A DNA stretch of 64,000 bases. Source: Protoeuglena noctilucae. Its lineage: Eukaryota. How positions within the stretch are numbered: position 1 is the stretch's first letter; the number at the start of each line of letters is the position of its first letter. The notes under the pieces are model-generated. The model was not told the origin of the DNA and made no database searches. It saw only the letters and a list, made by a program, of their open reading frames with translations. A program made the translations under genes and the position numbers. Below are positions 1-61,700 of this stretch, piece after piece. The stretch lies in assembly GCA_958009085.1 (NCBI GenBank), contig OY253687.1, positions 372,001 to 436,000 on the forward strand, written 5' to 3'.

Positions 1-2776
1 CCCGCGTTTACTGGCAGCTGTCGAGTCCGCGCATTCTGACGCTTGAGTACCTGCCGGGGACCAAGATTACCGATCTGGGGAAATTGAAGGAACAGGTGAG
101 GGGGGGTGTGGGTAGCAGTGTGGGTGTGTGAGTGTGTGGGTGGTGGGAGAGAGGGGATGCAATTGGTGTAATGGATTTGCAAGGACTGAGCGAGCTTGCA
201 CACTCGCAATCGGATAAGTCGGCGTGGCAAGACTAGCGCGTGGACTGTCCATAGCACATACCCAGCACCCACATCACGTCCCCGCATCCCCCACATCACG
301 TCACGTTCCTCACTCGCCCCTCCCCCCGCAGAATCAAGACCTGTCCCTCCTGGCAAGGCGCATGACCGAGTGCTACCTCACGCAGCTGCTTAGGCACGGG
401 TTCTTCCACGCCGGTGAGTAAGGGTGGACATGATAATTAACAATGTGATGTTGACATTGATTAACGATACGATATTGGCAGGATCATTGGAGATGTAGTG
501 TCACCTGACGTCGCTGCCACGGGATGGATTACTTGATCTCGTTAAGCGGGGGAAGGGGTTGCGATGCATACGTGCATGGCCACCCTTCCCTCGCTTAACG
601 AAGCCAAGGAATCCGTGTCGCTGCAGCCGCGTCGAATAGCGCTTTTAGTTATCATCTCAAATAATTGTCCGTCTGAGGTTAGGGTACAAATCGTAGATGA
701 TACCCCGGTGACCCCGCGTGCACGCCCGTGACTACTCTCACGCACTCCACCCCTCGCCCTAATCACGCCCCGTCAACTATCATTCTCACGCACTCCACCC
801 CTCATTATCTCTCCCGCAGACCCCCACCCCGGCAACCTGGCCGTCGATGCGCAGGGCAACCTCGTGTTTTATGATTTCGGTGAGGGGATGGGGATTAATT
901 GGTGATGACGGTGATTATTGCAATCGTTAGGCCAACCCCACCCCTCGCCTCTCACACTCGCTCGCACCCTCACCTGCACCCTCCCCCTCTCCCCCAGGCA
1001 TGATGGGCGAGATCGTCAGCAACGTGCGGGAGAATCTCCTGGAGGTCTTCTACGGAATCTACGGGAAGGACACGCAGCAGGCGAGGATTAATTTATTTAC
1101 ATAAAGATAATTATGATAATAATTACACATTTATAACTGCATATCTATGACATCTATCATGAAAACATAAAATATGAGTAATTACACCCATCACTCCATT
1201 CCACCCAGGTGTTAGACGCCCTGATAGCCCTGGAGATCGTCAAGCCCACCGGCGACTTGCTGTCGGTGCGTCGGTCGGTGTCGTATTTCCTGGATACCTT
1301 CACCAAGCAGACGCAGAGGGAGGAGACGATCCGGTGAGTGGGTGATAATAAGGGGGTAGTGAATGACGATGGGATGCAGTGGGTGATGAGGGATGCGCAG
1401 CGAGGGATCACTCTTACCAACACTGATGCGTACTCCTTACTTACTATATATTTACTATATAATCTAATTTAAATTTCTTATCGCAGCAACATTGGCGAGG
1501 ACCTCTTTGCCACTTTTACAAACAGTGTTAATAATCGTTTATAAAATAATATATTCATTACTTGTCATCCGCAGCAACATCGGCGAGGACCTCTTCGCCA
1601 TCGCGCTGGACCAGCCCTTCCGCTTCCCCGCCACTTTTACGTTTGTGCTTCGTGCTTTCTCCACTCTGGAAGGTATTGGAAAACGATTGGACGACTCATA
1701 TCGGTTCTCGGTGGTCGCCACGCCCTACTTCAACGAGCTGCTGGCCATCAAGGTGACTTCTATGTACTGGAGGGTTGTTATTAATACTAACCCTCTGCTT
1801 GATGCAACGAGGTGCTATCTCCACTGCCACCCCCACAGCCACCCCCGCTGCCACCCTTATCACCACCCATATCACCACCCCCGCTGCTTCTTTTTCCCTA
1901 ACCACAGGACGCCTCCCAGCGCGGCCAGCTGGTGCTGACCCAGCTGCAGCAACAGGTCGAGGCCCAGGCAGACGCGGCCGCGCAGGCCCCCACCCGCATC
2001 GCCAGGATCGGCCGGTTCGTGGATTCCCTCGAAGTGGGGGACCTGAAGCTGCGAGTGAGGGTGCTGGAGTCGGAGAGAGCCGCCAGGAGGGCGGGGATCA
2101 TGCAGGCCGCGACGCTCGACGCGGGTGAGGGGATGTGGATGCAATTACTGATTATGTTATCATGATAATGTATAATATATGATGTTTGATGTGTACTAGT
2201 GGTGGTGGATGGGTGCGCGTCATCCAGACAGCCACGCTTGACGCGGGTGAGAGCGATTTGACAAACATTGTATGTAGATTTTGTATGTATGATAATCGTA
2301 TGTGTAATAACACATAACATATACATCGCACGACATGACATGACGCATGCTGTGTATGTGCACGGCTTGAATGGGGCACGGCATGTGCAAATGCAACATG
2401 CTGGTTGTGGCTGGGTGGCAACTGCGCAGGTCCCCACACAGCCGCAGCCGCGTCTTGCATCTGCGCATGCCTCGCCGCATTCAAATTCAACTCGTGCCCA
2501 TACTGCAGCGTGCGCGATTCAAACACTTACGTTGAATGACGACCACCCACCACCACAACCCACCCCACCCAACCCCTTACATCTCATCCCCCTCCCTTTC
2601 CCCTCGCAGTGGGCGCTCTGGGATTTTTGAACCTGGGCACGCAGCTGTTTCTGGCGGGAAAGGACGTTCCCGCCACCAGCATGATGATTCTGACGGCGGT
2701 GTTTGCCCTCCGCATGACGCTGGGCTTCCGGCGCGTCAGAAACATCGATCGGTTCGAGAAGGGGATAAGGGGATGA
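1..2776 (+). CDS. ABC1K7: ABC1/UbiB atypical kinase, plastid ABC1K7 (SIA1)-like; 5'-truncated, 8 exons visible
   Basis: Spliced exons read PRVYWQLSSPRILTLEYLPGTKI / [31 protein letters not shown] / DLFAIALDQPFRFPATFTFVLRAFSTLEGIG / GDLKLRVRVLESERAARRA; stop TGA about 2774-2776. Confidence 0.88.
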
Positions 2777-3265
2777 GACTGCGGATTGGATAAGGGGATA
2801 AGGGGATGATAGGGTTGTGTGGGATGAGGTGATAAGGTTGGATGAGATGAGGGGATGAGGGAGATGAAGATGGGGTTGGGTGGGTTGAGGGAGTGAGTGG
2901 ATGAGGGTGGATAGGATGAGGGGATGGGGTGTGGGTGAAGTAGAATTGAGAGTAATGCGATGCTTTGCTTGTTCAATCTCTTGATGTCCCGTGACCCTCG
3001 TTTCCGTATATATGCCGTGACACTGACTTGCAATGTGTGCTTTACTGCCATTCGCCTTTCGACTTGCGAATAAACGAACTAAATGAGGCGGACTGATACC
3101 TAGAGCAGCGGATTTGAAACCGGAGATGATAGGGGTGATTATGGAGGTGCTACTTTCAAAGTAGGCAAGCGTGCTAAACAACAGTGAACACATGGGCCGC
3201 CGCCCCATCTCAGCGCCGCACTCCACCGCGTTTAAATGCGGCACTCCAATGCTAACAGAGAGTCT

Positions 3266-6200
3266 CTAAAAGTGCTTGCCGCCCCCCATCTTGACCCCCC
3301 CGTCCCTCCCCTGCCGCCCCTGCCCCGGCTGCTGGCTTGCGTGGGTGAGATACACCAACACCAGCGCCACTCCCAGCACGCCCACCAACGCACTGCGGGG
3401 GGGAGTAAATGAATATGATATGGGTGAGGTATACATGGTATATGGTATGATATAAACACCAACACCAGCGCCAATCCCAGCACGCCCACGAACGCACACC
3501 CCTATAAAAACCACCCTTCTCTTATCACCATTAATATCAGCATCGATTATAAACTACTCACCGGAACGGCAGCGCCCCCGGGTGCAGAATCAGCATGGCT
3601 AGTTAGTCCTAACTATGCAGTATCATTATCGCTAATTAACGTAAGCAGTATCATCATCGATCATAAACTACTCACCGGAACGGCAGCGCTCCCGGGTGCA
3701 GTATCTGTGCATAGGCGTAGACCCCCTCGTGCGACACCGCCAGAATGTCCGTCAGACCGTCACCGTCGAAATCAGCGACGATCAGGGGCTGGGGATGGGG
3801 AGGGGAGGGGTGGATGCGAGGTGTGTGAATGATTGAGTGTGGTAGTGTGAACTGCGCATACCCTACCCTTCCAGTGAGCGTGTGAGTGACTACCATCCTC
3901 TACACCCGCTGCCCCCCAACCCTTTCACAACACCTTACCACCACCCCTACCACACCACCACCCCTCACACACACCCCTCCACCCACCCCACCTGCACAGG
4001 CGGCACGCGTATGTCCATCGTCGTGAGAATGTTCCCGGCGGGAGACACCACCGAGGCCTTGAAGCTCCCCGCGGCCAGCATGACGAACTGGATGCTCTGA
4101 TTGGCCAATCGAAATGCCTTGAGGGTGGGCGTCAGGCGGTGGCTGGCGGGGGTGCCCTCCTTGTTCACCCACCAGGCCTCGGTGTAACGCTCCCACATCA
4201 GCCGGCCGTCGCTGCGAGTAAGGAGGGGGTTGATTGGGGGAGTGACAGTTGAATATTGATAATATTATAATAATGAAGTTGTTGTGGGTGGATGTGGAAC
4301 GCTCCCACATCGATCGGCCATCACTGCGATGGGTGAAACGAAGAGGATAGTTAGATATTGATGATTGTTCAGGACGGCATGGATGTGTAGCGCTTTCACA
4401 TCAATCGGTCGTCGCTGCGATGGGTGAAATGTGGAAAGGATAAGTAGATATTGGCTGTATTTTAATATAAATTATATGATGTGTGAGATGGTGTGGTAAC
4501 GCTCCCTGATCGCCACCCTGTCATTATAGACTAGTGTAGACTAATAACCCTCAACCAGCCCCCCCTTTACTCGCCTGGAGAACGCCACCAGCTCCCCCCG
4601 GCTGTTGAGGAACACGACCAGGTTATCGACCAGTGGCGACTTGGCCAGGTCTTTAGCAGCGATAGGGGCGGATGTGGCTTGGAGGAAAGAGGGGGCAGAC
4701 TGGCGCGTCACGGGGAGCATGCTGGGGGAAATTGGGGGGAGAGAGAGGTGAGTTGGTATAAATTATAATCAAATAATATAGCAAAGTGTGTATTATTAGT
4801 AGTAGTAGTAAATGTGTTACCAAGAAAATATCAAAATCACTATTAAAAACTACCGACCAAAGAATATCAAAATTATAACTATAAACCATACAATTAAAAG
4901 CCCAATTCCTCCCCCATCCCTCACTTGGGCACGGCGACCTCGACAGGTGCGCTGAGCACGGGCCCCCCCTGCCGGGCGACCGCGTAGAGGGCGCCTGTCC
5001 TGCTGAACTTGCACAGGCTGCCGTCGAACAGCCGGTGCTGGGAAGAGTACATGCCGCTGCGATGAGTGAGGGGTGGGATGGTGTGTTTGCATGGATGGGT
5101 GGCATGGTAAATGCATTTGCACAGACTGTGAGGGGTGAAGAGTGGGGTGCTTGGTCGTATTGCTCCTATCCACCCACCACTCGCCTGGTCACGTACCCCC
5201 AGCACCGGTTGACCCCCCCAATCGCCCGCGTGCCCTCAAACCCCGTCAGGTGGGCGTCCGCGTCCTCACCCACCGCCCTGCGATGTTTGGGAAGTGGAGA
5301 TTTGATATAGATGCAAACGAAGGAACCAGTTGCAATAATATTTTTTCTGTAAAATCCACCCATCTCTCGACTCACCAGGCGTGGTCGACCATGCCGTCCC
5401 GGTTCACGTCGGCGTGCAGCTGCCCCTCCGCCAGCACCACGCTGCACATGGCCTTGCCTGTTTGAACATCGACGATCTCAATGCCCTCGCGGGAATGGGC
5501 GACGACCGCGTTCAAGCCCACGTGGTCCAACTGAGAGGGGGATGGGGGGGCCAATAATGATAATGATGAAAATGGTAACTGTATATCAAAGAGCATGGAG
5601 TAGTGTATTGAGTAATGTATGCAAACCCACGTGGTCCAACTGAGAGGAGGGTGTGAGGATTGATTAACAGTAAGAAGTGCAGTCAAAACCACTATGTTTA
5701 CTGCGAACCATACCCCACTCCACCCCCTCCCCTCACCATCCCCGCCGCCCCCGGCGCCACCTCCACCCCCCCCTGCACCGCACTGCCCCCTGCTTTGGGC
5801 GTGCTCTCCCCACGCGCACCCCCCGCCACTCCCCCCATCATGTCGTGCATGCCGGAGATAGCAGAGACAACCGACGAGCCGTGCTTTGGGGTGGCTGCGG
5901 GGGTGTGAAGAGGAATTAGGGGTGAGAGGGGTGATGGGGAGTGGGTGGGGTGGGTGTGGTTAAGCAAGGGGCTAGGGAGGGCGCTTCCCCACACGTTCAT
6001 CCATGTGGATGCACCCGCGCTTCTCCATACGCTTATCACAATGCACCCCACCCCACTCACGCCTCTACATTTGCTCATTACAGTTAACACATATGCATCC
6101 ACCCCACCCACTCACGCTTCTCCATGTGCTTATCATAACCACACATATGCATTCAGATCCCCTCACCCCACTCACGCTTCTCCATATGCTTGAGATGCGG

Positions 6201-8228
6201 CCTGTCCCTTGCGTGTGCCTGGTCTTTGCTCTTGGCCATAAATGCCAGGTGAACGCTGGCATCATAGGGGCTGGCCCAGCGATGGGGGAGAGTGTGGGTC
6301 TGGGGGAAGGGGTGGGTGAGTGTTGGGGTGAGTGTTGGTGAGGGTGGCAGCGGGGGTGGGAGTGGGGGTGGCAGTGGGGGTGAGAGTGGGGGTGAGAGTG
6401 GGTGAGCATGACGCCACCCTCACCAGCACGGCGCGTCGGTACGCCCACCACACCTTCACCCAACACCGACACCAACAGTATCATCCAGTGCTATCTCCAC
6501 TCAAATTCCCACCCCTCACCAGCACCGCGTGTCAGTATGCCCATCACACACCCTCGCCAACATCAACACCACTATCTCCCACCACCCCTCACCAGCACCG
6601 CGTGTCGGTATGCCCCGCACGCCCTCTCCCCCTGCCTCCTCGCCTCCTCGACGGCCTCTGCCGTCATCTTGTAGTTGTACTGGTCCTCGAGCTCAAGAGA
6701 TCCAGACTTCGAATCCTGGGGGGGGGGGCGAGGGGAAAAAGAAGTGTCACACGGTCAACATACATGACGTGGCCCATCCCTCGTCGCCATCGGTCGCATA
6801 TGTGCTCAGCGACTAGATGAAAACCACCACTGTTACCCCTGAGTCACTCTCACCGCATCCTTCCCCTCCTTGCTCAGCAGCCAGTCCCCCGACGCGTGCC
6901 TCCACCGCTCCACCCCCGACCGCCCATCCAAGCCCGCCAGAAGCATCTCCTTGGAATCCCCGTCAAAGAACTTCGATCGCGGGGGGGCGAGGTCGTGCCA
7001 GGCCAGGTGGAACGGGTCGCCCTGGGTAGGGGGGGAGGTATGGGTGATGTACTGAAGTACAAAGAGACATGTACAAAGAGAAGTACAGAGAGATATGGGT
7101 GAAAATCGTGCGTCATTATGATGTTATCGAGGTGGAAGGGGTCGCCCTGAGAGAGGGAGAGGGGCAGAGAGATGGGTGGGGTTGTTACATCGTGATGGGG
7201 AGGTGGGGGTGTGCTGAGAAGCAACAAGTCATGTTACACATTCCAAACCGGGAGGTGCAGGGATATGCTAAGATGGAGAGAACTTCATTGCACACATGCC
7301 ATTCCATGCCCTGCCCCCCATGCCTCACCCAGGGATCATCGTCATCGATTGCCAAATCCACCACCCCGTCGTCCGTGTCACCCCCGCTCTCCAGCGTCAG
7401 CCCCACAATCACCGACCCGCGGTCGTGGTCCGCGATCGCACGCGGCGAGACGTGGACCGTCGCTTCCGACAGATACGCCCCGCGAGGCACCCCGTCCGGC
7501 CACAGCATGCGCGACCACAGAAGGCGCAAGTTGTGGTCGAAACAAAGCACGGTGCCGCCGGCCGTGACCACGACGACCACCATCTTGCGGAGCGCGGGCG
7601 GCGTAGGCGCCGGCTGGGCCCGCGGGGCGGGCGTCGAGGTGCGGGGCGGCGTGTCCTGCGGGTCCAGGTACCCTGCCGCAATCGCCACCGGGCGCAGCGG
7701 GTCCGGAACCTCGTCGCCGATCATCTCCGCGATCGGTACGTCCGCAGCGACCGCGGCGCGGCGGAATCCGTCCCCGCGGCGGCCGGGGCGCGACGGGCGG
7801 ACCACCTGCAGTCGACCAGCGGTCGTGGCCACCACCACCTCGGGCTGCCCATCGCCGTTCAGGTCTGCGGCGATGCGCGGGAGAAATCATCGCAGCTGAA
7901 CGAGCAGATGCGCGCGGGCGAGGCGGCGCGCGGGGCGGGCGCGCACCGGCGACGACCGGGCGCGGTCGCAGGGGGATGGAGACGTGCTCGAAGGTCTCCT
8001 CCAGCGCGCTGTGCTCGGCCAGCGGATGGAACCACGCCTCGCGGAACTCCACGCCACCCTCGCGCTGCGGAGAATGGCCGGGCGGGGGCGGCGATGGAGG
8101 CAATTCCGCCACGCAGAACGCCTTTGCAGGCCCAGCGCGGGCGGACGCCGCGCGTTCCGGCGCACCTGCAGCGCGATGTAGACGGCTACGACCGACAAGA
8201 GGAGGGCGAAGAGGTCGCGCGGATGCAT
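3266..8228 (-). CDS. FG-GAP repeat membrane protein, NERD1/At3g51050-like (multi-exon)
   Basis: N-terminus MHPRDLFALLLSVVAVYIALQ..FREAWFH; FG-GAP motifs DLNGDGQPEVVV, HADVNRDGMVDH, ADFDGDGLTDILAV; VLCFDHNLRLLW; C-terminal TM LVGVLGVALVLVYL. Confidence 0.85.
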
Positions 8229-9052
8229 CGTCGCCTCGTCCCCCGGCCGGGGGGCTCCTCGTCGCCCGCGACCGCAGCAGGGGCGATGGCCGCGACGGAA
8301 GGGTCGTTGGGGAGATGAGATAGAAGCAGTGGTTCTACGTGCCCACGGGATGAGCCCCCGGACGCAGATCGAGGAGCAAGGACCCCTGCCACGGCCGACA
8401 CCTGCGCTGGAAACTGGCGCGTCCCGAAGGGCTCCGTTTGAGAGCATCCCGCCCCAGCCTGTGCGACAACATCACGTACCATTCGAGATTAAACGCCCGC
8501 TACCTCTGCCTGACGCTAGAGACATCAACAAAACCCAAAAAGGTGCGTGAAAGGTCCAGTCCAAGCCTTGACCTCCCCCGGCCCTCCCGCGACGTGCTGT
8601 TGACACCGAAGTGTCGCTGTCTTTGCCAACGGAAGACTCCGCAGCCCCGTGGCCCCGCCGGGACCAGGTTCGCGGACGAGTCGGTCTTTTGCATGTTGCA
8701 CTCCCTTACTGCGAAGCAAAGTGCGGCTAGGGCACATGCCGTGGCCCCCGCGGTCTCCGGTAGAAATTTCGACTTCCTTGTTCTGTACGACCGCGCAATC
8801 GGCTCGCTCCGGCTTCGCACGGGCCGCACGGCCGAGCGGACCGCCGACGTCAGCTCCCGCGCGCGCCCAAGCCATGCCTTTGCCGGTCGAGACCGCTTTG
8901 GACTACGCGATAGGCCGGCCGCGGGAGCGCGAGGCTTGGCCTACACGCCGGGCGGGGAGGCATGCGGAAGGATGCGAGCGCCCTGGCGCGCGTATGCGGG
9001 ACGACGCGCGGCCCTCCCTCGCCTGCCTTGCAGGTCTTTCACAGCGCGCGTC

Positions 9053-11498: not shown

Positions 11499-12105
11499 TC
11501 ACCACGACTCGTCCTTGTCCTCCTTCTTGTTGGCAAAGTTGCTGACGGCACTGATGACGAAGCTCGCCACGATCGCGAAGAACATCAGCTGGAAGACGAC
11601 CGAGCCGATGCCGAAGCCGAAGCCGAAGCCAAACGTCGGGAAGATGGGGAACGCGGGGAAGAAGCCGTACGAGACGGGGGGCGCCACCACCACCGTCGTG
11701 CCACTGCGTGGGCGAGAGGGACGGCGCTGCGTCGGCGACGCCGGCGGGCAGGAGAAGACATGCAGTTGTGGAACGCAACAAGGCGCGACGCGTGCAGCGC
11801 GTCGCTCACCCGGCGACGGCCGGGGCCGCAGCCGCGCCGCGGGCGGGGGCCGTCCGCGAAGAGAAGTTCGAGCCGCCCGTGCGGCCGCCCGAGCGCGCCG
11901 CCTCCGCGGCGTCAGGGTTCACCGAGGACGTGAGCAGCGCCGCGGTTAGCACGGCTGCCGCCAGGGGCGCGGCACGGGGTGCCTCCTTCTCCACCGCGCG
12001 GCAAACCACCGCGGGACGCTGAACGGGGCGCTGGGCAACCCGCCCGGGCAGCCTCGCCAGGCCGCACTGCGACGCAGAGGGCAGGGGACCGGGTGAGCGC
12101 CTCAT
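11499..12105 (-). CDS. Plastid-targeted small membrane protein, OxR/At5g57345-like; start uncertain
   Basis: Transit-like VVCRA, AEAARSGGRTGGSNF motif, Gly/Phe-rich segment, TM helix and acidic tail KKEDKDESW; intron about 11705-11809. Confidence 0.65.
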
Positions 12106-12882
12106 GGCCTCGTTCAGGCGGGCAAGGTGGTCGGGTCGAGAGTCCCTCCGACCGGGGCGACCAGCGCAGGTCCGCCCGCAGTTCCACCGGCAGGGCGTGG
12201 AAACGATCGCAAAGAAAAACGCACGGGGGAGCTCGAGGAGGACGGCGCGCTCCGCTGGCCGGGCTCCGGCCCGTTGCACCGGGCCACCCAAGCCACGGCC
12301 GCGAGAGCGACGCCGAGGAGGCGCGATCGCGAACGCCCGGGGTCGCAAAGCGCGACTTTTGTGCCATTAGACCCCTCGGCCAGCGCTCGTTGGAAGCCGC
12401 GGCCGGGACGCGCGGGCAAGGCCCCCAACTTGCATGCCTACTACTTTCTCGAATTCTGCCCCGCCCAGGCCACGGGGAGGGGCGCGGCCGCTCGAGCCTC
12501 GCAATACGGGTCGAAAAGATGCTCACCGTGTGCGAAACCACCACCGCCGAGTTCATCTTCGCCGCAAAGCCTCAGACGCGCGTAGGCACGCACAGCCGTG
12601 ACGATCGCGGGAGTCCAAACCGCAGCTGGCTCGAGAGGGAGCTGCCGGGCGATGCGCACCAGATTGGAGGGTGACGAGTCGCGGTCCGCGCCCAGGAAGC
12701 CCCCTCGCTGGCTTGTTTCAGGCCCGCGGTCTGGCGCCAGACCCTCAGGTCGTTAGGTCGTCCGTTTGCCGTGGCAAAGTTCCCACCAGTTCCTCGTGTC
12801 GTCAACGTTGCGCGCAAGCGCCGGTGGCCTCGGAGACGCCGCGGCATAGGGCGAGGCGCCTGCGCGAGCTGGCCCGTGGCCG

Positions 12883-14801
<1,919 letters not shown>

Positions 14802-14973: not shown

Positions 14974-17286
14974 ATGCCTGGGGGTCTCCCGCGCCGCATC
15001 ACGCGCTCCTTCACCTCCGTCGTTGCGCAAAGAGCCGGGTTCGGCGACCTTCCTGCGCCGGAGAACAGGAGGGTGGTCGTCACGGGAATTGGCCTCGTCA
15101 CGCCGCTGGTGCGCCCTGCGTCGCGCTTTCGGCCCGGATTCGCCGATGCGTGGGCTCTCATGGTAGCTTGATCCTGTCGTTATTTGTTGCGCGCATGAGT
15201 CCAAGTGTTTCTGCCTCCCGCAGGCGGTGGGGGCGTCAGCATCATGGAGTGAGCTCTTGACCGGCCGCAGCGCCGTCCGCGCTTTGACGGAGGCCGACAT
15301 CGTGGGCCCGAGCAATCGGGAAACCTTTGAGCAGCTCCGATGTAAGGTCGCGGCGACGGTCGACCACGCTGCGCTGGCGTCATCCCCCTGGCTGGCAGCG
15401 TGCACAGCGCGCCTCTCGCGATGGCCCCCGTTCATCCGCTTCGCGCTCGCCGCGTCCTTCGAGGCAATCTTCGACGCCGGGTGCCCCGGGTCGCCCGCCC
15501 CGTCGCGCGAGTCGGCCGCGGAGCAGGTCGCAGCGGCGATGCGCGCACTCTCCGTCCCATCTTCCCGCTTCGGCGCGTCGATTGGCGCCGGGATGGGCTC
15601 ATCCGCGGACATTGCGGAAGTCGGCCGACTCGTCGCGACCGGCAGCGTCCGCCGGCTCTCGCCCTACTTTGTCCCGGGCGTGCTCGTCAACATGCCCTCG
15701 GGTCTTGTCAGCCTGGAGTTAGGATTGCGAGGCCCCAACCTCGCCGCAGCCACCGCGTGCGCGGCGGGAGCTCATGCTATTGCCGCAGCCTTCGACGCCA
15801 TTCGCCTGGGACAAGCGGACGCCATGATATGGTGCGTTGCGTTACACGTGCAATGGTTGTGGTTGTGGGCCACCCCTCACGCATCGCAAGCCATGCGCCC
15901 ACACCTTGCCACTTGCGCCACGACAACATTGCCACGTGCCGCTGTCGCTCACTGCTCCTCTCTGCCACTACCATGTCCCTGCCATGCCCGCTCCCACTCA
16001 CCACCACCCACACGCCCACGCCCCACACCCCACCACATCCCACCCTGCCCCCTTTGCAGCGGAGGCGCCGAGTCCGCGATCGACATCCCTGCCCTCGCCG
16101 GCTTTGGATCGTTACGTGCTCTGGCCGGGAAGTACAACAACAGCCCAGGCGAGGCGTCTCGCCCCTTCGACGTTGCTCGGGACGGCTTTGTGATGGGAGA
16201 GGGCGCGGGGGTGCTGGTGTTGGAGGAGGCAGGAAGGGCTGCGGCGAGGGGCGCGCGCGTTTACGCGGAGTTGCGTGGGGCGGGGTGCTCTGGCGACGCA
16301 CATCACATCACGCTACCACCGGAAGACGGCGATGGGGCGGTGCGGTGCATGGAGGCTGCAATGCGGGCCGCGGGGGTGCGGAGGGGAGAGGTAGCGTACA
16401 TCAACGCGCACGCCACGTCGACGCCGGACGGGTGAGGGTGGCATGGGTGGAGTGGGTGAGGGTGGAATGGGTGCGGTGGGTGAGTGACATCAGGGAAGGG
16501 TTGGCAGTAGCACTGTGCCTGAGTTGTGCTGAGGTGCGTGTGTGAATTTGGATTGAGCCAATATGAGCCTGCGTCCCTATTCACGCAGGGACGAGCGGGA
16601 GCAGGTGGCGATCGAGAGGGTGTTTCAAGCGCGCGCCACCCAGGGTGTCACGGGCGATGCGGGTGTGGCGGGGCCTGCCTCGCATACTGCCGCGACTGAG
16701 TCAGCGCCAGGGTCTGGTGCGTTAAATGAGATGGTGGGCAGCAGTGCAGGTGGTGAAGGTGGTGCACATAGCAACATCGATGGCCCCCCACTGCCGCTGT
16801 GGGTGTCATCGACCAAAGGGGCCACGGGGCATCTGCTGGGGGCAGCCGGGGGCGTCGAGGCGGCATTCACGGCACTGGCGCTCCACCACCGCATCGCACC
16901 GCCCACGGGTGAGCAAGGGGTCGGTAGTACGAGAGACAAACACATGGCATGGCAACTCCGCATCTCACCGCACACTGGTGAGCGAGTGATGGGGGGAGAC
17001 AGGCACATGAACAGGCAACACTAAGACGCAGTCATAGGCATCACCCATCCCACTCCCACATTACCACCCATCCCACCCCCGCACCGTCACCCATCCCACT
17101 CCCCGCATCCACCCCCCCGCAGCCAACCTGCAACGCCCCGACCCCCCCATTCTGGCGTCCTGCCTCGTTCGCCAGAAACCCCAGCCCCTGCCGTCGCAAA
17201 TACCTTTGGCTGCTCTGTCCAATTCCTTTGGATTCGGGGGCACCAACGCCACGCTCGTGTTTGCCACTGCACCCCACGTCCTGTGA
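14974..17286 (+). CDS. 3-oxoacyl-ACP synthase II, mitochondrial KAS (FabF/OXSM type)
   Basis: [24 protein letters not shown] (catalytic Cys), [50 protein letters not shown]; Arg-rich presequence. Confidence 0.92.
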
Positions 17287-44600: not shown

Positions 44601-47514
44601 GCTCTCCCTTCGCTCCTCCCTCATCTCTCGTAGCCCTGACTCACCGCAGTGCCTCCGACACGAGGGCGATGCCCAGCAGCTGCGAGTCCACGGCCTCGAC
44701 CACGTGCGTGTGGATGGAGGGGTGCACGAGGCAGGGCAGCGTGGAGGGGAGGAGGCTGAGGAGCGGGCGGGGGTCCTCGGGGGACGCCGTCAGCATGTGG
44801 TGGAGAGCCGCCTCGTGGTCACCCCTGCAATGAGGGTGGGGGTGGCAGTGGGGGTTAGGGTGGGTTTGTGGGGGTGGCAGTGAGGGTGGGAATGTTGTCA
44901 AAATGTGGTGGAAAGCGGCTTCGTGGTCACCCCTGGGAGGGAGTGGGGGTGGCAGTGGGGGTGGGGGTGCGGTGTGCAATCGTCAGGGCATGCAAACACC
45001 TGGCACATGTCATTCGTGCCTCTGTTCTTCCCCCACACTCACTTCAACCACAGCTGGAACCCCTTCGCATGCACTCACACTTGAACCACAATCGACATCT
45101 CCTTAACATGAGCTATAGATATCACACACGCTCACTTGAACCACAGCTGGAACCCCAGCAGGAGCTCCAGTGCCCGGGACAGGTCCTCCACGCCGTCGGC
45201 CGTGCGGTCCCCCGGGCCAGGCGCGATGGGCATCTGGTCGCAGAGGGTCTTTGCTGCCTCAAAGTTACCCACGGCAGCGAGCTTCTCGATCTGAGGGGCG
45301 GGGAGGGGGGGTTATGAGGGGCTCTATGGCACAGTGTGGCACAGCATGGGTGGGTGGGGCTACGGCACATGGGTGAGTGGGGTTGCGGCACAGCGAGGCA
45401 CGACAAGGGTCATTGAGGCTCTATGGCACAGTGCGGATGAATGGGGCTTTATGACAAAACATAGGTGGGTGGGGCTGCGTTGTCACAACATGGATGCGTG
45501 GAGCTGCGTCACAACATGGGTGGGCGCTTGCAGTGGCATTGCTGCAAATGACCCTCACTTGCACGCGCAGTGGCACCATGCGTAGCTGGGAGACGCCAAA
45601 GTCCGTCGCACTTAGGAAGGTGAGGCTGTGGGTGGCAGCCCCGCCCGCGCTGACTGCCGATTGGCTCTGCAGGTCGAGGACTTGGGCCAGGGCGAAGCCA
45701 CTCATGGGGGTGCTGCAAGTGGGGAGGCGAGGGGGCGAGTGAGGGCGAAGCCACTCATGGGGGTGCTGAGGGGGGTAAGGGAGTGGTAAGTGAGAGGGCG
45801 AGTGAGGGTCAAGTAAAGACTGTGTGACTGGGGTGCTGCGAGGGTCAAGCGAGGGGTTCAGTCGGGGGGGAGTGAGGGGACAGTGAGAAGAGAGGGCGGT
45901 GTGACTTGTCGGGGTACTGTGTACAACCATCTCAGAGACCGGGTAGGCGCAAGGTGTCTCACTTGTGCCTCACTTCCACCCTGTCCTTGCGCGTGACAAT
46001 GAGGAAGGGCCCACGCACGGCCGCAAAGTGCACGTTGCGGGATATCTCGACCTGCAGGGGCGGGGCAAGGGAACGCGTCGTGTTTACTAAACACTTTCCA
46101 TAGATACAGTCAAGCCATGCACCCGCTAGCCACTGACCCCTGCTGCACAATCCAACCATGCGCCTTTGCTACCCACCGACACCCTCCGCACAGTACGACC
46201 CACCATGCCCGCCGCTAGGCACTGACACGCCCTGCCACCCCCGCTCACCTGCAACCGGCTGAGCACCCCCTCTGCGCTGACGAAGAGGATGCGCGGCCCA
46301 GAAAGCAGCACGGCCCCTCCTCCAGGCACGGGCGACACACTGGCGTCCGGCTGGCGCGGGAAGGCGAATTTGGGGACCGAGAGGGCGCGCGGGCGGGGCC
46401 TGGCTGGTGGCTCGCCCTCGACGCCCGAGGGCAAGCCCTCTGGGATGGTCGCGATTGAGAAGTCGCGACGAAGGCAGACGATCAGGGTGGTTGGCGACGC
46501 GAAGCCAACCCTGCGGGGTGGGGTGCAGAGGGGCGGTGGGGTGGGTGGGTGGCAGAGAGGGCGACGAGCGCCTGGTGACAGTATGGTGGAGGGCTGAGCA
46601 CTGGCGGGCGGCCAAAGGATGGGAGGCCCTCACCCGTACGCCCACACGCCCATCTCATGCCCACCAGACAAGCCCTCACCCGTACGCCCACATGCCCATC
46701 TCGACCATCGCCACTGTTCGGAAACTGTCGGGCCGCACGAGCGGCTGGCTCAGGGGCGGGGTGGTGTCCTCTCCGATAAACACCCCGACCGGCGCTCGTC
46801 CCGACGCCACCGTGATCTCCGATGCGGCGTCGCGAGAAGCGGAGGCGTGGCTCGAGGCGGCAGGGAGTGGCGCGCGGAGGATTGCCACGGCCTTGCCCAG
46901 GCAACAGGCGAGCGTGGCCGTCTCGGGCAGGAACGCGACCGCATGGGCGCTTTGGGAGCCGGGGATCGGGCCGAGGTCGGCCATGCGCGGCTGCTGCGAG
47001 GCGTCGAGGACGTGGACGGCGTTGCTGTGAAGGGCGAGGGCCACGCGGGCCTCGGGCCACGCCAAGAGCCGGGAGACTGGCTTGGCCGTGACTCTCTCGT
47101 ACACGTGCGTCTTGTGCCACCGGCGCTGGGCGCGCGTCGACGCCGCGCGGCTGAGTGTGCGCCCTAGGGCCGGAGGACCCTGCTCGGCCTCGGGCATGCG
47201 CACGTAACGCGCGATGCTCGTGTCCGCTCCACACACGAGAATAACATTGTTGTGTTCGTCCAGCGCGACGGGCTGCGGGTCGCGGAGAGGGCGAGCGCGG
47301 GTGCGAGCAAGGGTGCGATGCTTTCCTGCCTCTCCCAGGCGCACCGGGTCACTGTTCTCCGCAACCAAGCGACGTCAGCGCAAGGTCGTGTCGTCACTAA
47401 GCCTGCTGTTGTGGCTGTCGCTGTGTGGTGCCCCCCTCGGCGCGCAGGCACCTTGGTCCCCACCCCTCCCGAGACACGCTCGAGGGTGAAGCCGCTCTGC
47501 AGTGGCCCGGTCAT
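41605..47514 (-). CDS. Vps39/Vam6/TGFBRAP1-family HOPS/CORVET subunit
   Basis: C-terminal zinc finger CWVCNKRLGSGAFASMPDGRVVHFMC; LVDTALCK, GLHAQALSAL, YLD/YIEYL motifs of the Vps39 CHCR region; N-terminal CNH-like segment. Confidence 0.8.
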
Positions 47515-54585: not shown

Positions 54586-56468
54586 ATGAGCTTTGGTCAG
54601 CTGGTGATCGGACCCCCGGGGAGCGGCAAGACGACCTACTGCCGCGGCGTCGCTGAGGTGAGATGCGCGGCTGGGTGTGGGGGGATGAATTGTTACAAAA
54701 AGAAGCATGGGACGCGATGCGAGGCGCCGGGGCAGACCATCCACTGGATGCGGCGCGGGTCCTTGAAGTCGCCATCCCCGCGCTGCTCCTCTGCGGGCTG
54801 TTGCGCGCGTACCATTGCATCTTTCTATTGTCTCCGCAACTTCACGCAGTATTTGAATCAGGTGGGGGTGAACGCGGCCATCGTGAACTTGGATCCTGCA
54901 AACGAAAGCCTGGAAGGGGTGTGTGCCGCGGATATCCGAGGTGCGCCTCGCCGGAGCGGTGCGCGCGGCGAAGGTTTATCGCCAACATGCAGCAAGATAT
55001 GCACGTGATCGTGCTACGCAGAGCTCGTGTCCTTGGAGCGCGTCCAGGAGACGCACGGGCTGGGTCCCAACGGCGGCCTCGTGTTTTGCCTCGAGTATCT
55101 GGCCGCGAACGTCGATTGGCTCGAGGACAAGATCCGAACGTTCAAATCGGAAGATTGCTACCTGCTCTTCGATCTCCCGGGGCAGGTGAGGGTGTTTTCG
55201 GCACGGCTCATCATCGTGCCGTCACGGATGGGTGCCTTTGCCTACAACATACGTCAACCAGGCGTCATCTTCGCTTCCGCTGCCGCTATGGATCGCAGGT
55301 GGAGCTGTGGAGCAACCACGGTGCGCTGAGGGACGTCGTTGACCGCCTCGCCAGGAACTGCGGCCTTCGCCTCTGCACCGTCAACCTCGGTGGGCCGCTG
55401 AGCCACAGTCACACCCCAGAGTCACTTTCACTGCTGTCCTCACTGTTACCCCCACTGCCACCCGTAGTGCTGCGCTCATTGCCACCACCACTGCCACTCC
55501 CACTGCCACCCCCACTGCCATCCTCATCCCCAACCCCACTGCCACCCCCACCGCTACCCTCACCCCCAGTGGACTCCCTCCTGTGCTCCGACGCCCCCAA
55601 GTTCGTCAGCGCCCTCCTCCTCTCCCTGTCATCCATGCTCCACATCGAGCTGCCCCACGTCAACGTCCTATCCAAAGCAGACCTGGCCCAACGCATCCAC
55701 GGGGACGAATTCCGACTCACGGACGTGAGCGACGATTTGTTTGAGCTTTCTGAGTTACATGGAAGATACATGGAATATCTTGAATGTCGGGGTGACGTCT
55801 GCCTTCCCCATTCATCCTGTGCAGTTCCTCGACTGCAGGAACGCTCCCACTTCATTACCTATTCTCACCCCACTTACTCCCAACCCCACTCACCCCACGG
55901 AGTTCCTCGACTGTTGCAACTCCAACTCGCTCATCCCACTATCTCCCTTCCCCACTTCCCCCACTAACTCCATTCCCCATCTCTCCCCACTCGCAGTTCC
56001 TGGACTGCTGCGACCTCCCCTCCCTCGCCGACCGCCTCGACGCGGGCGCCTTCTCCCACCGCTACCGTACCCTCACTGCCGCCATCTGCGAAACAGTCGA
56101 GGACTACGCACTCGTGGACTTCCTGCCTCTGAGGTGAACATGCTGCGAGTGTTGGCATTTGGCTCGTGACTTTTTGATGCATGACACGTACACCCGCCCC
56201 CCACGTGTGCACCTCCCATCAGCTAGTTTGCCGACCTCTCCACCACCCCCCCACCCTCACCCCACCCCAGCCACCTACAACCCGACCCACCACCCCACCC
56301 ACCCCTCTCTGCAGCATCGAGGACCCCAAGAGCGTCGGCAAAGTCCTCGACGTCGTCCACCAGGCCAACGGCTTCTGTTTCAAACCACTGACACACGATC
56401 CCTACGCGGCCGCCCAGGGGGGTCTCTGCCAGAAACAGACACCCGGGGTCCGAGCTGAAGGGCACTGA
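54586..56468 (+). CDS. GPN2: GPN-loop GTPase 2
   Basis: FGQLVIGPPGSGKTTYC, VNLDPAN, GLGPNGGLVFCLEYL, FDLPGQVEL, ELPHVNVLSKADL, ANGFCF. Confidence 0.93.
55400..55565 (+). repeat. 12-bp intronic minisatellite (CCACTGCCACCC-like)
   Basis: About 12-nt periodicity; related arrays at 1821-1880, 6340-6400, 18280-18320 and 44830-44965. Confidence 0.75.
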
Positions 56469-56510
56469 GAGGGCTGATTTTGAATTACCATACCAAGTGT
56501 ATTGGGGCGG

Positions 56511-59111: not shown

Positions 59112-61700
59112 TCACCTGTACCCCTCGTTCTCCTCCTCCATCCTCGTCATCTCCTGATCGAACTTCTGCGTCAACTCCTCCATCTCCGTCTCCAGTCGCT
59201 TGCGGTCGTCCAGAAGCTGCCAGATCATGCCGTCCTGTGGGGACGAGGCGAGAGGGGTCTCTGGGGTCCGTGAGAATGATTATGAACAGAGCTTATGCTG
59301 CACTGCGCACCACCTGCCCCTTTCCAGCCCACCCTTGCCTCCGCCCGCACCAGCACGGCTCACCCCTCACCTCGCCCCACACTACCCGCCTCACCCACCC
59401 ATCAATCCCTCACCTTGATCTGCACCAGCTTCTTCCACGCGGCCATGTGGTCATCCATGTTGGCGTACTGCGCCGCGAACTCGAGCATGTCCGACACGTC
59501 CACCTCGGGGCACGCGGGGGCCGGCTGCGTCGTGATCTTGCGCAGCTCGTCGCAGAGGACGGGGTAGATCCTGCGACGGGGCAACTACAAGCGGGGTTTG
59601 GGTATGAGGGCGATAATATCGAGGTAGATCCTGCGATGGGGCAAGGTGGGGGGGAGTTGTGGGTGGGTGGGGCAGCAAACGACGGGCTATATGCTTATGC
59701 GCACGCAAGGGCCAGCGGGGGGGGCGGGGGTAAGGGGCAGGGTCAGCGGACGTGTAAGCGGCATGCTCAGCACAAGCGAGGGGTTGGCGGGGGACATTGG
59801 TGGCGGGACAGCGAGGGTGCGGCCGGGTCGCCGAACGTGCTGCGGCCTCGCCTGAGGAAGCGCAGCACGTCTTGCGACTGGGTGGGCGCCGTGGCCTCCA
59901 TGATGAACTCCTGGACCTTGGTCAGCTGCTTGCGGACCTCCTCCAAGTGCTTCACGACCTCCTTGGCCTTCTTGTCGGCCACCTCCTGCGGGAGTGGTAA
60001 CAAGGTTGTTGCAACAGGGCAGGGTGGGACGGGCATCAAGGGGTGGGGTAACGGAGCGGGGCGTGTGGGGCGTGAGGCGCTAGGGCAACATTGAGGCAGC
60101 ACGCAGCTGCGTCGCAATGGGATGCTCACGTCCAGTGCCTTGCACGCCTTCTCGACTTCCTTGACCATGAGCTTTTGAGCCTCCTGCATCGGGCACGGAG
60201 CGGGGATGCAATGGTTACCCGTTTCTGCGCTCGCACAGTGCGTCGTCCGTGCAGCAAGCAGTGCGGCTAGCAGTACAGCGGGAGGCACGGGGTGCGTGGA
60301 CTCGTGTGACACGTCATCACACGCGATGAGTCCAGCACCGTACATCACTGTCGAGCCCGGCTCATGCAAGCCGCCCCGCACCTCTTTGCTCTTCTTGATC
60401 TGCTCCACCTTGTGCTGCGTCTTGGCCACGTTGTGAATAAGAGCGTCCCGCTTGGCCAACACCGGGCCGTTGATGCTGTTCTGCAGAGAGCCAATCTGCA
60501 CCGCGAGAGGGCGGAGGGCGGGGCGAGGTCAGCTCACAGCTGCCACACCTGGCCGGGACGGGTGCCATGAGAATGGATGGCAGCGATTCTGGAAAGGTGA
60601 GCATAAGTCACGCCCTCGCTTCACATGCTTCTCATGCGAAGGCATTATTCACTGGCACGATGCCCATGGCGCCCCCCCGTCACCTTGGTCCGGTAGGCAT
60701 CCATCAAATTGAGCACCACGTGACCCTGCTCCTTCAGTTTCTCGACCACGCGCGGCTCGGCGATGATGGGCTGCCCGGCTGCGAGCACGCATGCCATGAG
60801 GGGCATTGGTTGGCGAGCAGCGGCTGCCGGGAGCTGGTGGCTGTGTATGGGGTGGCGCAAGCGCGGGACGAGAGATGGGGCATCGGCGTGGCACGGATGC
60901 GAGAGGGCGCAAGCACATGGGCATGGACCTGCAGACCCAGAGACGGAGGCGGTACTGCGAAACCACGATGAACACACCTGTGTCATCATACAACATGTGC
61001 ACGGAGTCTGGGAGGACGATGCCGGGCACGTGCAGCGCAGGTGGTGGGTCCGCCTCTTCCTCTCGCTTCTTGGGCCTGCGGGGGAGCTGGGCTCGGACTT
61101 TGTCAACATCAAAAGGCGCAGCCCCTGTACCTCTAAACGAGCTGACGGTCGCGCGAACATACAGCTCAGCTGATATGGTGCGAAGGAATTACATGTAAAA
61201 GGCCTCAGCCACTCACGCTGGGCCGCTGAGAGCGCCGGGCAGGATCCCGCCCCACGGGTAGTTCATGTACGGGTGTGACGCGACGAACGTGCCGTCCAGC
61301 GTCCCCTCCGGCTCGTTTTCCGCGGCGGACATCCGCACCGATCCGTACATGGCGGGAAAAAAGCCAGCGGACATTGCCTGCGCGCGGGAGGCCGCTCGGA
61401 TGTACGAACGACGTCACCATGGAACGAGAGCCCCGCGGTCGCCGCAGTGGCGGCGATGGGGGGCCACGGGTGCACCCGCGCATGGACAGGACAGCGAGTT
61501 CGCGGATGCGAATGACGGCGGGGGCGCGGAGCGGGCGGGGGCGGCGCTCGCACCTGCGGCATGAGGCCGACCAAGGGGGGATAGTAGCCCTGCGACGTGG
61601 AGGCCTGTGCGGCGGACGCCGACCGCTCCTCGTGCTCCTTCTCTTTCGAGCGCCCAGCACCCTTGTCCTTGTCCTTCCCCTCCTTTCCTTCCTTGCCCAT
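59112..61700 (-). CDS. Uncharacterised coiled-coil protein (about 9 exons)
   Basis: Frame-consistent exon chain from MGKEGKEG to KDGMIWQLLDDRKRLETEMEE; heptad-rich K/E segments; strong codon bias. Confidence 0.65.

What the first reader, a model, noticed from the sequence alone, without database searches (positions are those of the whole stretch)
1481..59644. Window-wide 'splice-junction echoes': introns carry degenerate copies of their own exon/intron boundary
About 20 junctions in 8 unrelated genes have a 20-55 bp sequence straddling the true splice junction that recurs, diverged, about 45-250 nt away inside the adjacent intron. True site -> echo: 1571->1483; 2103->2225; 3351->3456; 3668->3555; 4188->4299, 4390; 5517->5626; 6167->6107, 6052, 6013; 6585->6512, 6416; 7006->7131; 13925->13883; 16889->16958; 18574->18638, 18711, 18803; 19951->20038; 20241->20195, 20150; 44793->44907; 45131->45038, 45074; 45689->45742; 46672->46627; 55993->55820, 55900; 59563->59623. 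Both donors and acceptors are echoed on both strands, and many echoes keep an intact GT or AG. The pattern is seen directly. Inference: either a local tandem-duplication process that grows introns from their junctions (surviving because the duplicate falls inside the intron), or a system of decoy/alternative splice sites. I know of no description of this at such density.
Basis: partly seen in the sequence, partly recalled or inferred. Interest (0 to 1): 0.85.

Follow-up and report, generated by a model that had tools for sequence, protein, structure and literature searches.

The report
Splice-junction copies inside green-alga introns
In this marine green-alga-like genome piece, about one splice junction in eleven has a decaying copy of itself a short way inside the neighbouring intron, left by ordinary short-range DNA duplication within introns rather than by a special junction-directed or decoy system.

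Summary
In my own blind scan, 20 of 230 junctions (26 copies, 17 of 115 introns) have an echo, against 0.45 expected. Marine RNA contigs confirm four of these junctions and use only the outermost site.

The echoes are direct, short-range duplications with a period of 46-238 nt (median 102). Twelve of 26 adjacent pairs are whole head-to-tail units. The rest are repeat-spacer-repeat.

There is no junction hotspot. Junction-including duplications number 25 of 45, against 20.2 expected if placement were uniform among tolerated positions. Purely intronic duplications are about as common.

Echo introns are about 125 nt longer than the others. 23 of 26 echoes keep GT/AG at full motif strength. Only 6 of 26 are in frame, so nothing points to a decoy or isoform role.

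Precedents exist: the human F7 intron-7 minisatellite, and junction-proximal tandem repeats in Chlamydomonas introns.

Three things remain unexplained: a tenfold excess of such repeats in introns over UTR/intergenic DNA, a patchy spread across genes, and two near-perfect echoes whose spacers match neither flank.

The parts
1334..1574 (+). Intron of an ABC1-kinase-like gene. The acceptor echo at 1475-1512 copies 1562-1600 (34/38 identical, AG kept, period 88).
   Evidence: Intron seen in RNA contigs of X1-X3. Echo found. Homology covers 82% of the period.
2125..2609 (+). Intron of the same gene. The donor echo at 2207-2260 has GT kept and a period of 122.
   Evidence: RNA contigs.
3393..3675 (-). 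Intron of an FG-GAP repeat gene carrying both kinds of echo. The donor echo is at 3542-3591 (54/58 over 3545-3602, GT kept, period 114). The acceptor echo is at 3457-3497 (45/48, AG lost, period 104).
   Evidence: The exon edge at 3676 is bounded by tblastn matches that end at 3678. The acceptor at 3393 is supported by the HMM only.
4212..4574 (-). Intron with two acceptor echoes, at 4294-4329 and 4385-4420 (30/36 each, AG kept).
   Evidence: The exon edge is bounded by tblastn matches ending at 4207-4213.
5531..5736 (-). Intron with an acceptor echo at 5622-5658 (32/37, AG kept, period 109).
   Evidence: tblastn matches end at 5524-5536.
5895..6175 (-). Intron with a four-unit donor array. 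The true donor is at 6176|6175. Echoes lie at 6097-6131 and 6046-6075 (GT kept), with a weaker fourth unit at about 5990-6045.
   Evidence: Alignment A2; (whole-unit homology). Exon 6176-6299 is supported by homologue P0004.
6300..6592 (-). Intron with donor echoes at 6509-6558 (44/48) and 6414-6461 (40/48), both keeping GT.
   Evidence: (family D8); a tblastn match ends at 6593.
7022..7328 (-). Intron with an acceptor echo at 7130-7162 (29/33, AG kept, period 125).
   Evidence: The junction is supported by the HMM only.
14183..14396 (+). Intron of a sugar-nucleotide dehydratase-like gene with a donor echo at 14228-14261 (GT kept, period 72).
   Evidence: The junction is supported by the HMM only and was not reproduced in the retraining.
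16909..17122 (+). Intron of a ketoacyl-synthase-like gene with a donor echo at 16941-16993 (44/55, GT kept, period 69).
   Evidence: The junction is supported by the HMM only and was not reproduced.
18591..19009 (-). Intron with a four-unit acceptor array. Each unit holds a C-rich tract, CAG and the first 14-29 nt of the exon. Echoes lie at 18791-18836, 18698-18748 and 18639-18670, and all keep AG. The last unit is the one used.
   Evidence: RNA contigs of three runs join 18590 to 19010. Alignment A1..
19961..20247 (-). Intron with donor echoes at 20195-20217 (23/23 identical, GT kept, period 46) and 20131-20171 (GT lost), and an acceptor echo at 20025-20061 (AG kept).
   Evidence: The spacer of the 23/23 pair matches neither flank. 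The junctions are supported by the HMM only.
44825..45135 (-). Intron with a donor echo at 45029-45063 (31/35, GT kept) and an acceptor echo at 44897-44951 (50/59, AG kept, whole-unit homology).
   Evidence: (family D18).
45713..45962 (-). Intron with an acceptor echo at 45742-45783 (37/42, AG kept, period 53). This is the only long-period array that Tandem Repeats Finder also reports (45689-45801).
46511..46679 (-). Intron with a donor echo at 46626-46656 (30/31, GT kept, period 46). It has a repeat-spacer-repeat layout.
55725..55996 (+). Intron of a GPN-loop GTPase-like gene with an acceptor echo at 55886-55932 (AG kept, period 94). A weaker second copy lies at about 55821-55848.
12067..12526 (-). 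UTR intron, known only from RNA, with a weak acceptor-side echo at 12279-12318 (score 19, AG lost).
   Evidence: This is the weakest member of the set.

Best explanation
The echoes are by-products of frequent short-range duplication inside this organism's introns. The duplicated stretches are about 45-240 nt long.

A duplicated stretch sometimes reaches across a splice junction into the first or last 12-50 nt of the exon. The result is two copies of the junction. The outer copy stays contiguous with the exon and remains the working splice site. The inner copy becomes part of the intron and drifts. Repeated events give arrays of up to four units and lengthen the intron by about one unit per event.

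The process is not aimed at junctions. Duplications wholly inside exons are removed by selection, and those in introns or across one junction are tolerated.

The spare sites keep a full-strength motif but are not the sites used in the assembled transcripts. This implies that the splicing machinery prefers the outermost site: the most upstream donor and the most downstream acceptor.

Shown: the repeats, their direct orientation and spacing, whole-unit arrays, longer introns, the lack of a junction excess, and use of the outer site in four RNA-checked junctions.

Inferred: the DNA-level cause (slippage or unequal exchange for whole-unit arrays, fill-in or templated copy at a nearby break for repeat-spacer-repeat cases), neutrality, and the outermost-site rule.
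For: Excess over chance: 20 of 230 junctions against 0.45 expected. 18 of 226 against 0.5 expected, with 0 in reverse complement.

Whole-unit tandem structure: 12 of 26 adjacent copy pairs have homology over >=80% of the period. Four-unit arrays are shown in A1 and A2.

No junction excess: 25 of 45 observed against 20.2 expected, and 37 of 92 against 43.1. Local-copy rates are 10.6% for intron-interior windows, 8.8% for straddling windows, 3.6% for exon-edge windows, and 0.3% for windows 30-60 nt into exons, which is the control level.

Exon-only duplications at score >=18 number 3, in 29 kb of exon.

Echo introns have a median of 283 nt against 157.5 nt for the others (p = 3e-6). The median period is 102 nt.

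RNA contigs of three runs skip the echoes and use the outer site at 1574, 2125, 18591 and 12067.

Identity ranges from 77% to 100%, so the process is ongoing.

Precedents: the F7 IVS7 minisatellite, whose first unit spans the exon boundary and whose pseudo-sites stay silent (PMC1557585, abstract). Tandem repeats are densest in introns and near junctions in Chlamydomonas and Volvox (PMC3887541, abstract and passages; PMC9940879 and PMC9977147, passages).
Against: 7 of 26 adjacent pairs have homology over less than half of the period. The two youngest echoes (23/23 and 30/31 identical) have 15-23 nt spacers that match neither flank. A simple tandem duplication followed by decay cannot explain these.

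Survivorship alone does not explain why local repeats are about ten times denser in introns (1.85 per kb) than in UTR/intergenic DNA (0.17 per kb).

It also does not explain why 0 of 36 introns between 20.4 and 44.6 kb have an echo, against 17 of 79 elsewhere (p = 0.0013).

23 of 26 echoes keep GT/AG, where about 67% would be expected at roughly 82% identity. Their motif scores (mean 6.8) are close to those of true sites (mean 7.3). So they are not being purged as harmful sites would be.

Only one 64-kb window was available. 11 of the 20 echo junctions rest on my own gene model.
Confidence: 0.72

Rival explanations
1. A duplication process aimed at junctions. On this reading, breaks or slippage are triggered at or near splice sites, for instance by splicing- or transcription-linked damage, so that introns grow specifically from their ends.
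For: At score >=18, junction-including pairs (25) slightly outnumber purely intronic pairs (20; 19 after relabelling). Local repeats are about tenfold denser in introns than in UTR/intergenic DNA. Published work finds tandem repeats concentrated towards intron ends in green algae (PMC3887541).
Against: Given intron lengths of about 160 nt and units of about 100 nt, uniform placement already predicts 20.2 of 45 junction-including pairs against 25 observed. At the looser cut-off the observed number (37 of 92) is below the expected 43.1. Interior windows have copies as often as straddling windows.
Confidence: 0.1
2. Short insertions flanked by long target duplications. On this reading, filler or mobile DNA of 10-56 nt entered at a staggered break near the junction, and the 20-60 nt overhang was filled in on both sides, giving a repeat-spacer-repeat layout.
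For: 7 of 26 adjacent pairs have homology over less than half of the period. In the youngest pairs the spacer matches neither flank (sequences read). Small tandem duplications from fill-in at staggered breaks are described (PMC8355091, of which I saw the title and the start of the abstract in a search listing only).
Against: 12 of 26 pairs are whole head-to-tail units, and arrays reach four units. The spacers form no dispersed family: queries hit other introns at only 0.2-0.9%. Exon-only copies inside introns are rare (2, against 22 junction-including), which fits units that run contiguously through the junction.
Confidence: 0.09
3. A functional decoy or alternative-site system. On this reading, echo sites are used to make unproductive or alternative transcripts that tune expression.
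For: 23 of 26 echoes keep GT/AG. Their motif scores are all >=4.5 nats, above the 90th percentile of other intronic GT/AG, with a mean of 6.8 against 7.3 for true sites. Retention is above the roughly 67% expected from overall identity.
Against: None of the 13 RNA joints displayed uses an echo site. 20 of 26 spacings are out of frame. The echoes are of very different ages and decay like neutral sequence, with 84% identity in the exon-derived part and 80% in the intron-derived part. Their spread over genes is patchy, with no visible functional theme.
Confidence: 0.06
4. An assembly or annotation artefact.
For: Repeats can be mis-assembled, and most junctions come from my own gene model.
Against: The copies have diverged (77-97% identical for most), so they cannot be collapsed or expanded reads. 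Logan contigs of a DNA run match the window over 1300-19969 with no differences. RNA contigs and protein homology confirm 9-10 of the echo junctions.
Confidence: 0.02

Closest known systems
Human F7 intron 7 (IVS7) 37-bp minisatellite (Borensztajn et al. 2006, PMC1557585; I read the abstract)
   Same: It is a tandem array whose first unit spans the exon-intron boundary. The authentic donor is therefore followed by identical pseudo-donors, which stay silent. The most upstream site is the one selected.
   Different: That is one human gene with a 37-bp unit, copy-number polymorphism and experimental proof. Here there are 20 junctions in 8 genes within 64 kb. Both donors and acceptors are affected. 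Units are longer and more diverged (46-238 nt). Silence is inferred only from assembled RNA contigs.
Intron-enriched, junction-proximal tandem repeats of Chlamydomonas and Volvox (Zhao et al. 2014, PMC3887541, abstract and passages; Craig et al., PMC9940879, passages; PMC9977147, passages)
   Same: These are GC-rich green algae in which tandem repeats are densest in introns and concentrated near intron-exon junctions. This matches the roughly tenfold intron excess found here.
   Different: In the passages I read, those surveys concern mostly short-motif repeats inside introns. They do not describe copies that cross into the exon and duplicate the splice site.
Introns and alternative splicing arising from tandem arrays (Zhuo et al. 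2007 PNAS). I saw the title only, in a reference list. The paper is not held, so its content is recalled.
   Same: Tandem repeats that carry repeated splice sites shape intron structure.
   Different: As I recall it, the repeated sites there create new, alternatively spliced introns. Here the junctions already existed, and the extra sites appear unused.
Intron gain by tandem duplication of an exonic stretch containing a proto-splice site (Lehmann et al. 2010, PMC2891723; I read the abstract)
   Same: A short tandem duplication in a gene is made harmless by splicing.
   Different: That model predicts that the 5' end of the intron matches the downstream exon and its 3' end matches the upstream exon. 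I tested this and it is not met: 0-1 of 116 introns, which is chance level.
Introner elements of Micromonas and Aureococcus (described in PMC3488318 and PMC9481584 passages; the mechanism of Huff et al. 2016 is recalled)
   Same: They concern marine picoalgae and introns that are absent from relatives' orthologues. Here 5 of 6 introns of the kinase-like gene are absent in loci L001 and L002.
   Different: Introners are a dispersed family of similar elements. Introns here share only low-complexity 12-nt motifs, with cross-intron hit rates of 0.2-0.9%. Each echo copies its own neighbouring junction. Two of the intron positions are shared with a more distant relative, L003.

Membership tests
Boundary-spanning intronic tandem repeat (F7 IVS7 type) | Direct head-to-tail copies | tested here: met
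   All hits are direct, with 0 reverse-complement hits. 12 of 26 adjacent pairs are whole units. Arrays A1 and A2 have four units each. 7 of 26 pairs are repeat-spacer-repeat, so the feature is not met by every case.
Boundary-spanning intronic tandem repeat (F7 IVS7 type) | The outermost unit contains the authentic exon-intron boundary | tested here: met
26 copies have >=12 exon nt aligned. The junctions are supported by RNA (4), by homology (5-6) or by the HMM alone (11).
Boundary-spanning intronic tandem repeat (F7 IVS7 type) | The inner copies are potentially functional pseudo-sites that stay silent | tested here: inconclusive
   The motif strength of echoes is close to that of true sites. 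Only outer sites appear in RNA contigs for four junctions. However, contigs drop rare forms, and 29 of 44 joints were not shown.
Boundary-spanning intronic tandem repeat (F7 IVS7 type) | Copy-number variation between individuals | not testable with these tools
   No second strain was available, and the first metagenome scan found no relative of that exon.
Introner / transposon-generated introns | A dispersed family of similar elements filling many introns | tested here: not met
   Junction and intron windows hit other introns at only 0.2-0.9%. Only 12-nt low-complexity motifs are shared.
Introner / transposon-generated introns | Introns absent from orthologues of close relatives | tested here: inconclusive
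   5 of 6 introns of one gene are absent in L001 and L002, but two positions are shared with L003. Loss in the relatives is equally possible.
Intron birth by exonic tandem duplication (proto-splice-site model) | The intron 5' end is homologous to the downstream exon start, and the intron 3' end to the upstream exon end | tested here: not met
   0 and 1 of 116 introns reach score >=14, against a control rate of 0.26%.
Tandem alternative splice sites | Both sites are used, with spacing that usually keeps the frame | tested here: not met
   6 of 26 spacings are multiples of 3. No echo site appears among the 13 RNA joints displayed. Minor use was not testable.

The most novel reading that the evidence does not exclude
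This alga may have an intron-restricted, short-range copying process, producing both tandem units and copy-paste of 20-60 nt from about 50-250 nt away. It would be linked to transcription, to splicing or to the G-rich and C-rich tracts at intron ends. It would be a main driver of intron length, and it would keep seeding full-strength pseudo splice sites. The spliceosome would silence these by a strict outermost-site rule. On this reading the echoes are dozens of natural experiments on splice-site choice, and they show introns growing from within.
Probability: 0.3. Interest if true: 0.6.

Novelty: new member of a known kind. Interest (0 to 1): 0.4.

Why it matters
The window shows, at a measurable rate (about 9% of junctions), how introns lengthen by local duplication. 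It also shows that exact or near-exact spare splice sites can sit 50-240 nt from the real one without replacing it in the assembled transcripts. That makes the organism a natural test bed for the rules of splice-site choice: most upstream donor, most downstream acceptor.

There is also a practical warning for annotation. A permissive gene finder placed micro-exons exactly on the echoes.

The unexplained tenfold excess in introns over UTR/intergenic DNA, also reported for Chlamydomonas, remains an open question about mutation or selection in green-alga introns.

Otherwise the mechanism is ordinary and has a single-gene precedent in humans.

Tried and rejected
No whole genome is held for this window, so a genome-wide test was impossible.

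The first metagenome scan, with exon 3992-4210, found no relative. The FG-GAP gene was not found next to the kinase-like gene in the relatives' loci, so no orthologous echo intron could be compared.

Tandem Repeats Finder reports only one of the long-period arrays (45689-45801). The others are too diverged for it.

I first thought that echoes decay towards AT. On the earlier 23-echo set there are 49 GC-to-AT changes and 22 AT-to-GC changes on a 69% GC source. The per-site rates are therefore equal, about 0.10 each, and I dropped the idea.

Intron birth by exonic duplication was tested and not found.

Three of my own analyses were flawed and were replaced. One search masked the echoes by self-matches. 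The null included overlapping windows. One search overstated whole-unit coverage, with a mean of 0.99, because it used loose local alignments. supersede them.

The protein-atlas search gave no help with taxonomy.

Both look-ups of earlier scan notes returned nothing relevant.

RNA contig depth was not used to rank genes, as the tool advises against it. Stretches of the FG-GAP gene with no displayed RNA joint are not evidence either way.

The strand bias of echo introns is not significant: 12 of 55 on minus against 5 of 60 on plus, p = 0.06.

My searches turned up no paper describing many boundary-spanning copies in one algal genome. They cover open-access text only and are not exhaustive.

Full report
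WHAT THE WINDOW IS

The window is a gene-dense eukaryotic stretch. It has 65% GC overall, but only 54% in the first 6.4 kb. No annotation or whole genome was available.

Marine metatranscriptome runs hold 23-34% of the sampled words of 1300-7300, and DNA runs of one organism label hold all of them. I laid three RNA runs and one DNA run on 1300-20400. This gave 13 spliced joints with GT..AG, with CT..AC on the minus strand, or, in one case, a GC donor.

I wrote a two-strand HMM gene finder and trained it on the window itself.
- At the setting I used, it predicted 113 introns and reproduced exactly 11 of the 13 RNA introns. The two it missed are UTR introns.
- With splice-site matrices trained only outside the RNA-checked stretch, it still recovered 10 of the 11 coding introns, 98 of the final 115 introns and 12 of the 17 echo introns.
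- I corrected three places. The predicted intron at 2752-3213 is 3'UTR, because RNA contigs run through it. Exon 6176-6299(-) was added on the evidence of a Pedinophyceae homologue. The two UTR introns were added from RNA.
- The final set has 115 introns and 230 junctions.

The named homologues of one protein are from green algae and plants: Coccomyxa, Edaphochlamys, Pedinophyceae and Arabidopsis.

- 24 of 29 exceed the 99.9th percentile of 5000 random window pairs.
- 28 of 29 span a predicted junction.
- All 29 echoes lie inside the adjacent intron.
- The five weak pairs are 6167->6013, 13925->13883, 20241->20150, 45131->45074 and 55993->55820.

Blind scan over all junctions:
- 20 of 230 junctions have an echo, with 26 copies in 17 of 115 introns and 8 genes.
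- The control (the same queries against other introns) gave 9 hits in 4600 trials, which is 0.45 junctions expected.

With 30 nt of pure exon edge as the query, 18 of 226 junctions hit their own intron. That compares with 0.5 expected and with 0 for reverse-complemented queries.

The Logan contigs of the DNA run match the window without a difference over 1300-6381 and 6365-19969. The diverged copies are therefore in the reads, though this run may be the source sample.

ANATOMY OF THE ECHOES

- All copies are direct.
- Junction-to-junction spacing is 46-238 nt, with a median of 102.
- Two arrays have four units. In intron 18591-19009, each unit is a C-rich tract, CAG and the first 14-29 nt of the exon (alignment A1). 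In intron 5895-6175, each unit ends in exon tail plus GTGAGTGGG (alignment A2).
- I extended each adjacent pair along the repeat diagonal from the junction. Homology covers at least 80% of the period in 12 of 26 pairs, 50-80% in 7 and less than 50% in 7.
- So about half of the pairs are plain head-to-tail tandem units, and the rest are repeat-spacer-repeat.
- For the two youngest echoes (20195-20217, 23/23 identical; 46626-46656, 30/31 identical; both with a period of 46), the spacer of 15-23 nt matches neither flank. Decay cannot account for this.
- An earlier, looser estimate that nearly all units were complete was too generous, and I withdraw it.
- On the earlier 23-echo set, identity is 84% in the exon-derived part and 80% in the intron-derived part.
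- Changes in the echo show no per-site bias towards AT.

IS THE JUNCTION SPECIAL? NO

Share of 30-nt windows with a local copy in the same intron:

| Window position | Windows with a copy | Controls (other introns) |
|---|---|---|
| Intron interior | 193 of 1829 (10.6%) | 0.1-0.9% across the first three rows |
| Straddling a junction | 50 of 569 (8.8%) | as above |
| Outer 30 nt of exons | 24 of 664 (3.6%) | as above |
| 30-60 nt into exons | 2 of 631 (0.3%) | same as observed |

Merged direct-repeat pairs 40-330 nt apart at score >=18, after relabelling:

| Pair type | Pairs |
|---|---|
| Junction-including against intron | 22 |
| Exon-only against intron | 2 |
| Intron against intron | 19 |
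| Exon against exon | 3 |
| Involving UTR/intergenic DNA | 2 |

I took each observed pair's period and intron length and placed the duplication uniformly among positions that leave one intact junction. The results are:
- At score >=18, this predicts 20.2 junction-including pairs of 45, against 25 observed.
- At score >=14, it predicts 43.1 of 92, against 37 observed.

With introns of about 160 nt and units of about 100 nt, many tolerated duplications are bound to cross a junction. No junction-directed process is needed.

CONSEQUENCES FOR THE INTRONS

- Echo introns have a median length of 283 nt against 157.5 nt for the other 98 (p = 3e-6). The difference is about one unit.
- 11 of 12 donor echoes keep GT, and 12 of 14 acceptor echoes keep AG.
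- Echo motif scores under my window-trained matrices average 6.8 nats, against 7.3 for their true sites. All are above the 90th percentile of other intronic GT/AG.
- Even so, the RNA contigs of three runs use only the outer site at the four echo junctions that were displayed. For 18591-19009 this means passing over three upstream CAG sites, each with its own C-rich tract.
- Only 6 of 26 spacings are multiples of three, so using an echo would usually break the reading frame.
- Contigs drop rare forms, and 29 of the 44 joints were not displayed, so minor use remains untested.
- A permissive run of my gene finder placed micro-exons exactly on several echoes.

ALTERNATIVES

- Intron birth by duplication of an exonic stretch predicts the reverse arrangement of copies. 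It is not seen: 0-1 of 116 introns.
- A dispersed element family is not seen. Cross-intron hits run at 0.2-0.9%, and only 12-nt G-rich or C-rich motifs are shared.
- A filler-plus-long-target-duplication or templated-copy origin fits the repeat-spacer-repeat minority. It does not fit the whole-unit arrays. It also does not fit the scarcity of exon-only copies inside introns (2, against 22 junction-including).

RELATIVES

A second metagenome scan, with the kinase-like exon 1576-1752, returned 80 loci.
- In the closest loci, L001 and L002 (85% amino-acid identity in that exon, 63-65% GC), six of the window's exons are contiguous. Five of the six introns are therefore absent there.
- L003 (49% GC) has introns at the 1333|1575 and 1752|1908 positions. 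It carries three short tandem copies of its own acceptor motif, which is an anecdotal parallel.
- No orthologous echo intron could be aligned.

WHAT REMAINS UNEXPLAINED

- Local repeats run at 1.85 per kb in introns against 0.17 per kb in UTR/intergenic DNA. At the intron rate, 21 would be expected in the latter, and 2 were seen.
- Echoes are patchy: 0 of 36 introns in 20.4-44.6 kb against 17 of 79 elsewhere (p = 0.0013). The lengths of echo-free introns are similar in both regions.
- The near-perfect repeat-spacer-repeat cases have no explanation.

COMPARISON WITH WHAT IS KNOWN

- The human F7 gene has a 37-bp minisatellite in intron 7 whose first unit spans the exon 7 boundary. It gives identical silent pseudo-donors, with the most upstream site selected (PMC1557585, abstract).
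- In Chlamydomonas and Volvox, tandem repeats are densest in introns and concentrated near intron-exon junctions (PMC3887541, abstract and passages). Later Chlamydomonas work repeats the finding of an intron excess (PMC9940879 and PMC9977147, passages).
- Tandem duplication is also an accepted route to new intron positions (PMC2891723, abstract).
- I saw Zhuo et al. 2007 only as a title in a reference list, and the paper is not held.
- My seven literature searches turned up no account of many boundary-spanning copies in one algal genome. They cover open-access text only.

VERDICT

The 'grows from the junctions' and 'decoy system' readings are not supported.

This is a new, dense instance of a known kind of structure. 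It has some value as a natural test bed for splice-site choice and intron growth, and the excess of such repeats in introns remains an open question.

Noticed in passing
window 1-6400: This stretch has lower GC (54% against about 65%), and its introns are AT-rich (49.6% GC against 61.4% elsewhere). The DNA run's word depth is 46-49 here against about 74 beyond. The DNA contigs break at 6365-6381, inside a 12-nt repeat. This may be the edge of a low-GC chromosome region. Such regions are described for other picoalgae (PMC9481584 passages).
   Followed up: no
window 1810-1887, 6338-6402, 18257-18330, 44836-44969, 55429-55568: A 12-nt motif family, GTGGGGGTGGCA and its complement, recurs in introns of unrelated genes. 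It is C-rich on the sense strand near intron 3' ends. G-rich runs follow many donors.
   Followed up: partly
window 2232-2246, 4309-4323, 4400-4414, 5631-5639, 6015-6022, 6116-6119, 20043-20048: A permissive run of my gene finder placed micro-exons exactly on echoes. Echoes could therefore mislead automatic annotation.
   Followed up: partly
window 18254-18402 and 13767-13927: Two introns have GC donors. The first is seen in RNA contigs. The second is predicted, and it joins a conserved dehydratase motif across the junction.
   Followed up: partly
L001 1111-1914, L002 2731-3534, L003 700-1800: The closest metagenome relatives have the kinase-like exons contiguous, so 5 of the window's 6 introns are absent there. 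L003 shares two intron positions and has three short tandem copies of its own acceptor motif.
   Followed up: partly
window 13758-13926: One RNA contig (run X2) joins these places with six other letters in between. These read as a Phe-to-Tyr difference. It is probably the transcript of a close relative in the same sample.
   Followed up: no
window 11492-12128 and 5759-6395: The DNA run's depth spikes here (1734 and 358, against about 74), and RNA depth reaches 550 at the small gene 11502-12105. This points to sequence that is repeated in the genome or shared with other organisms.
   Followed up: no
window 9560-9727: A 21-nt in-frame tandem repeat lies in an acidic, Ala/Glu/Pro-rich protein gene. 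It accounts for most of the exon-exon repeat pairs with score >=18.
   Followed up: no
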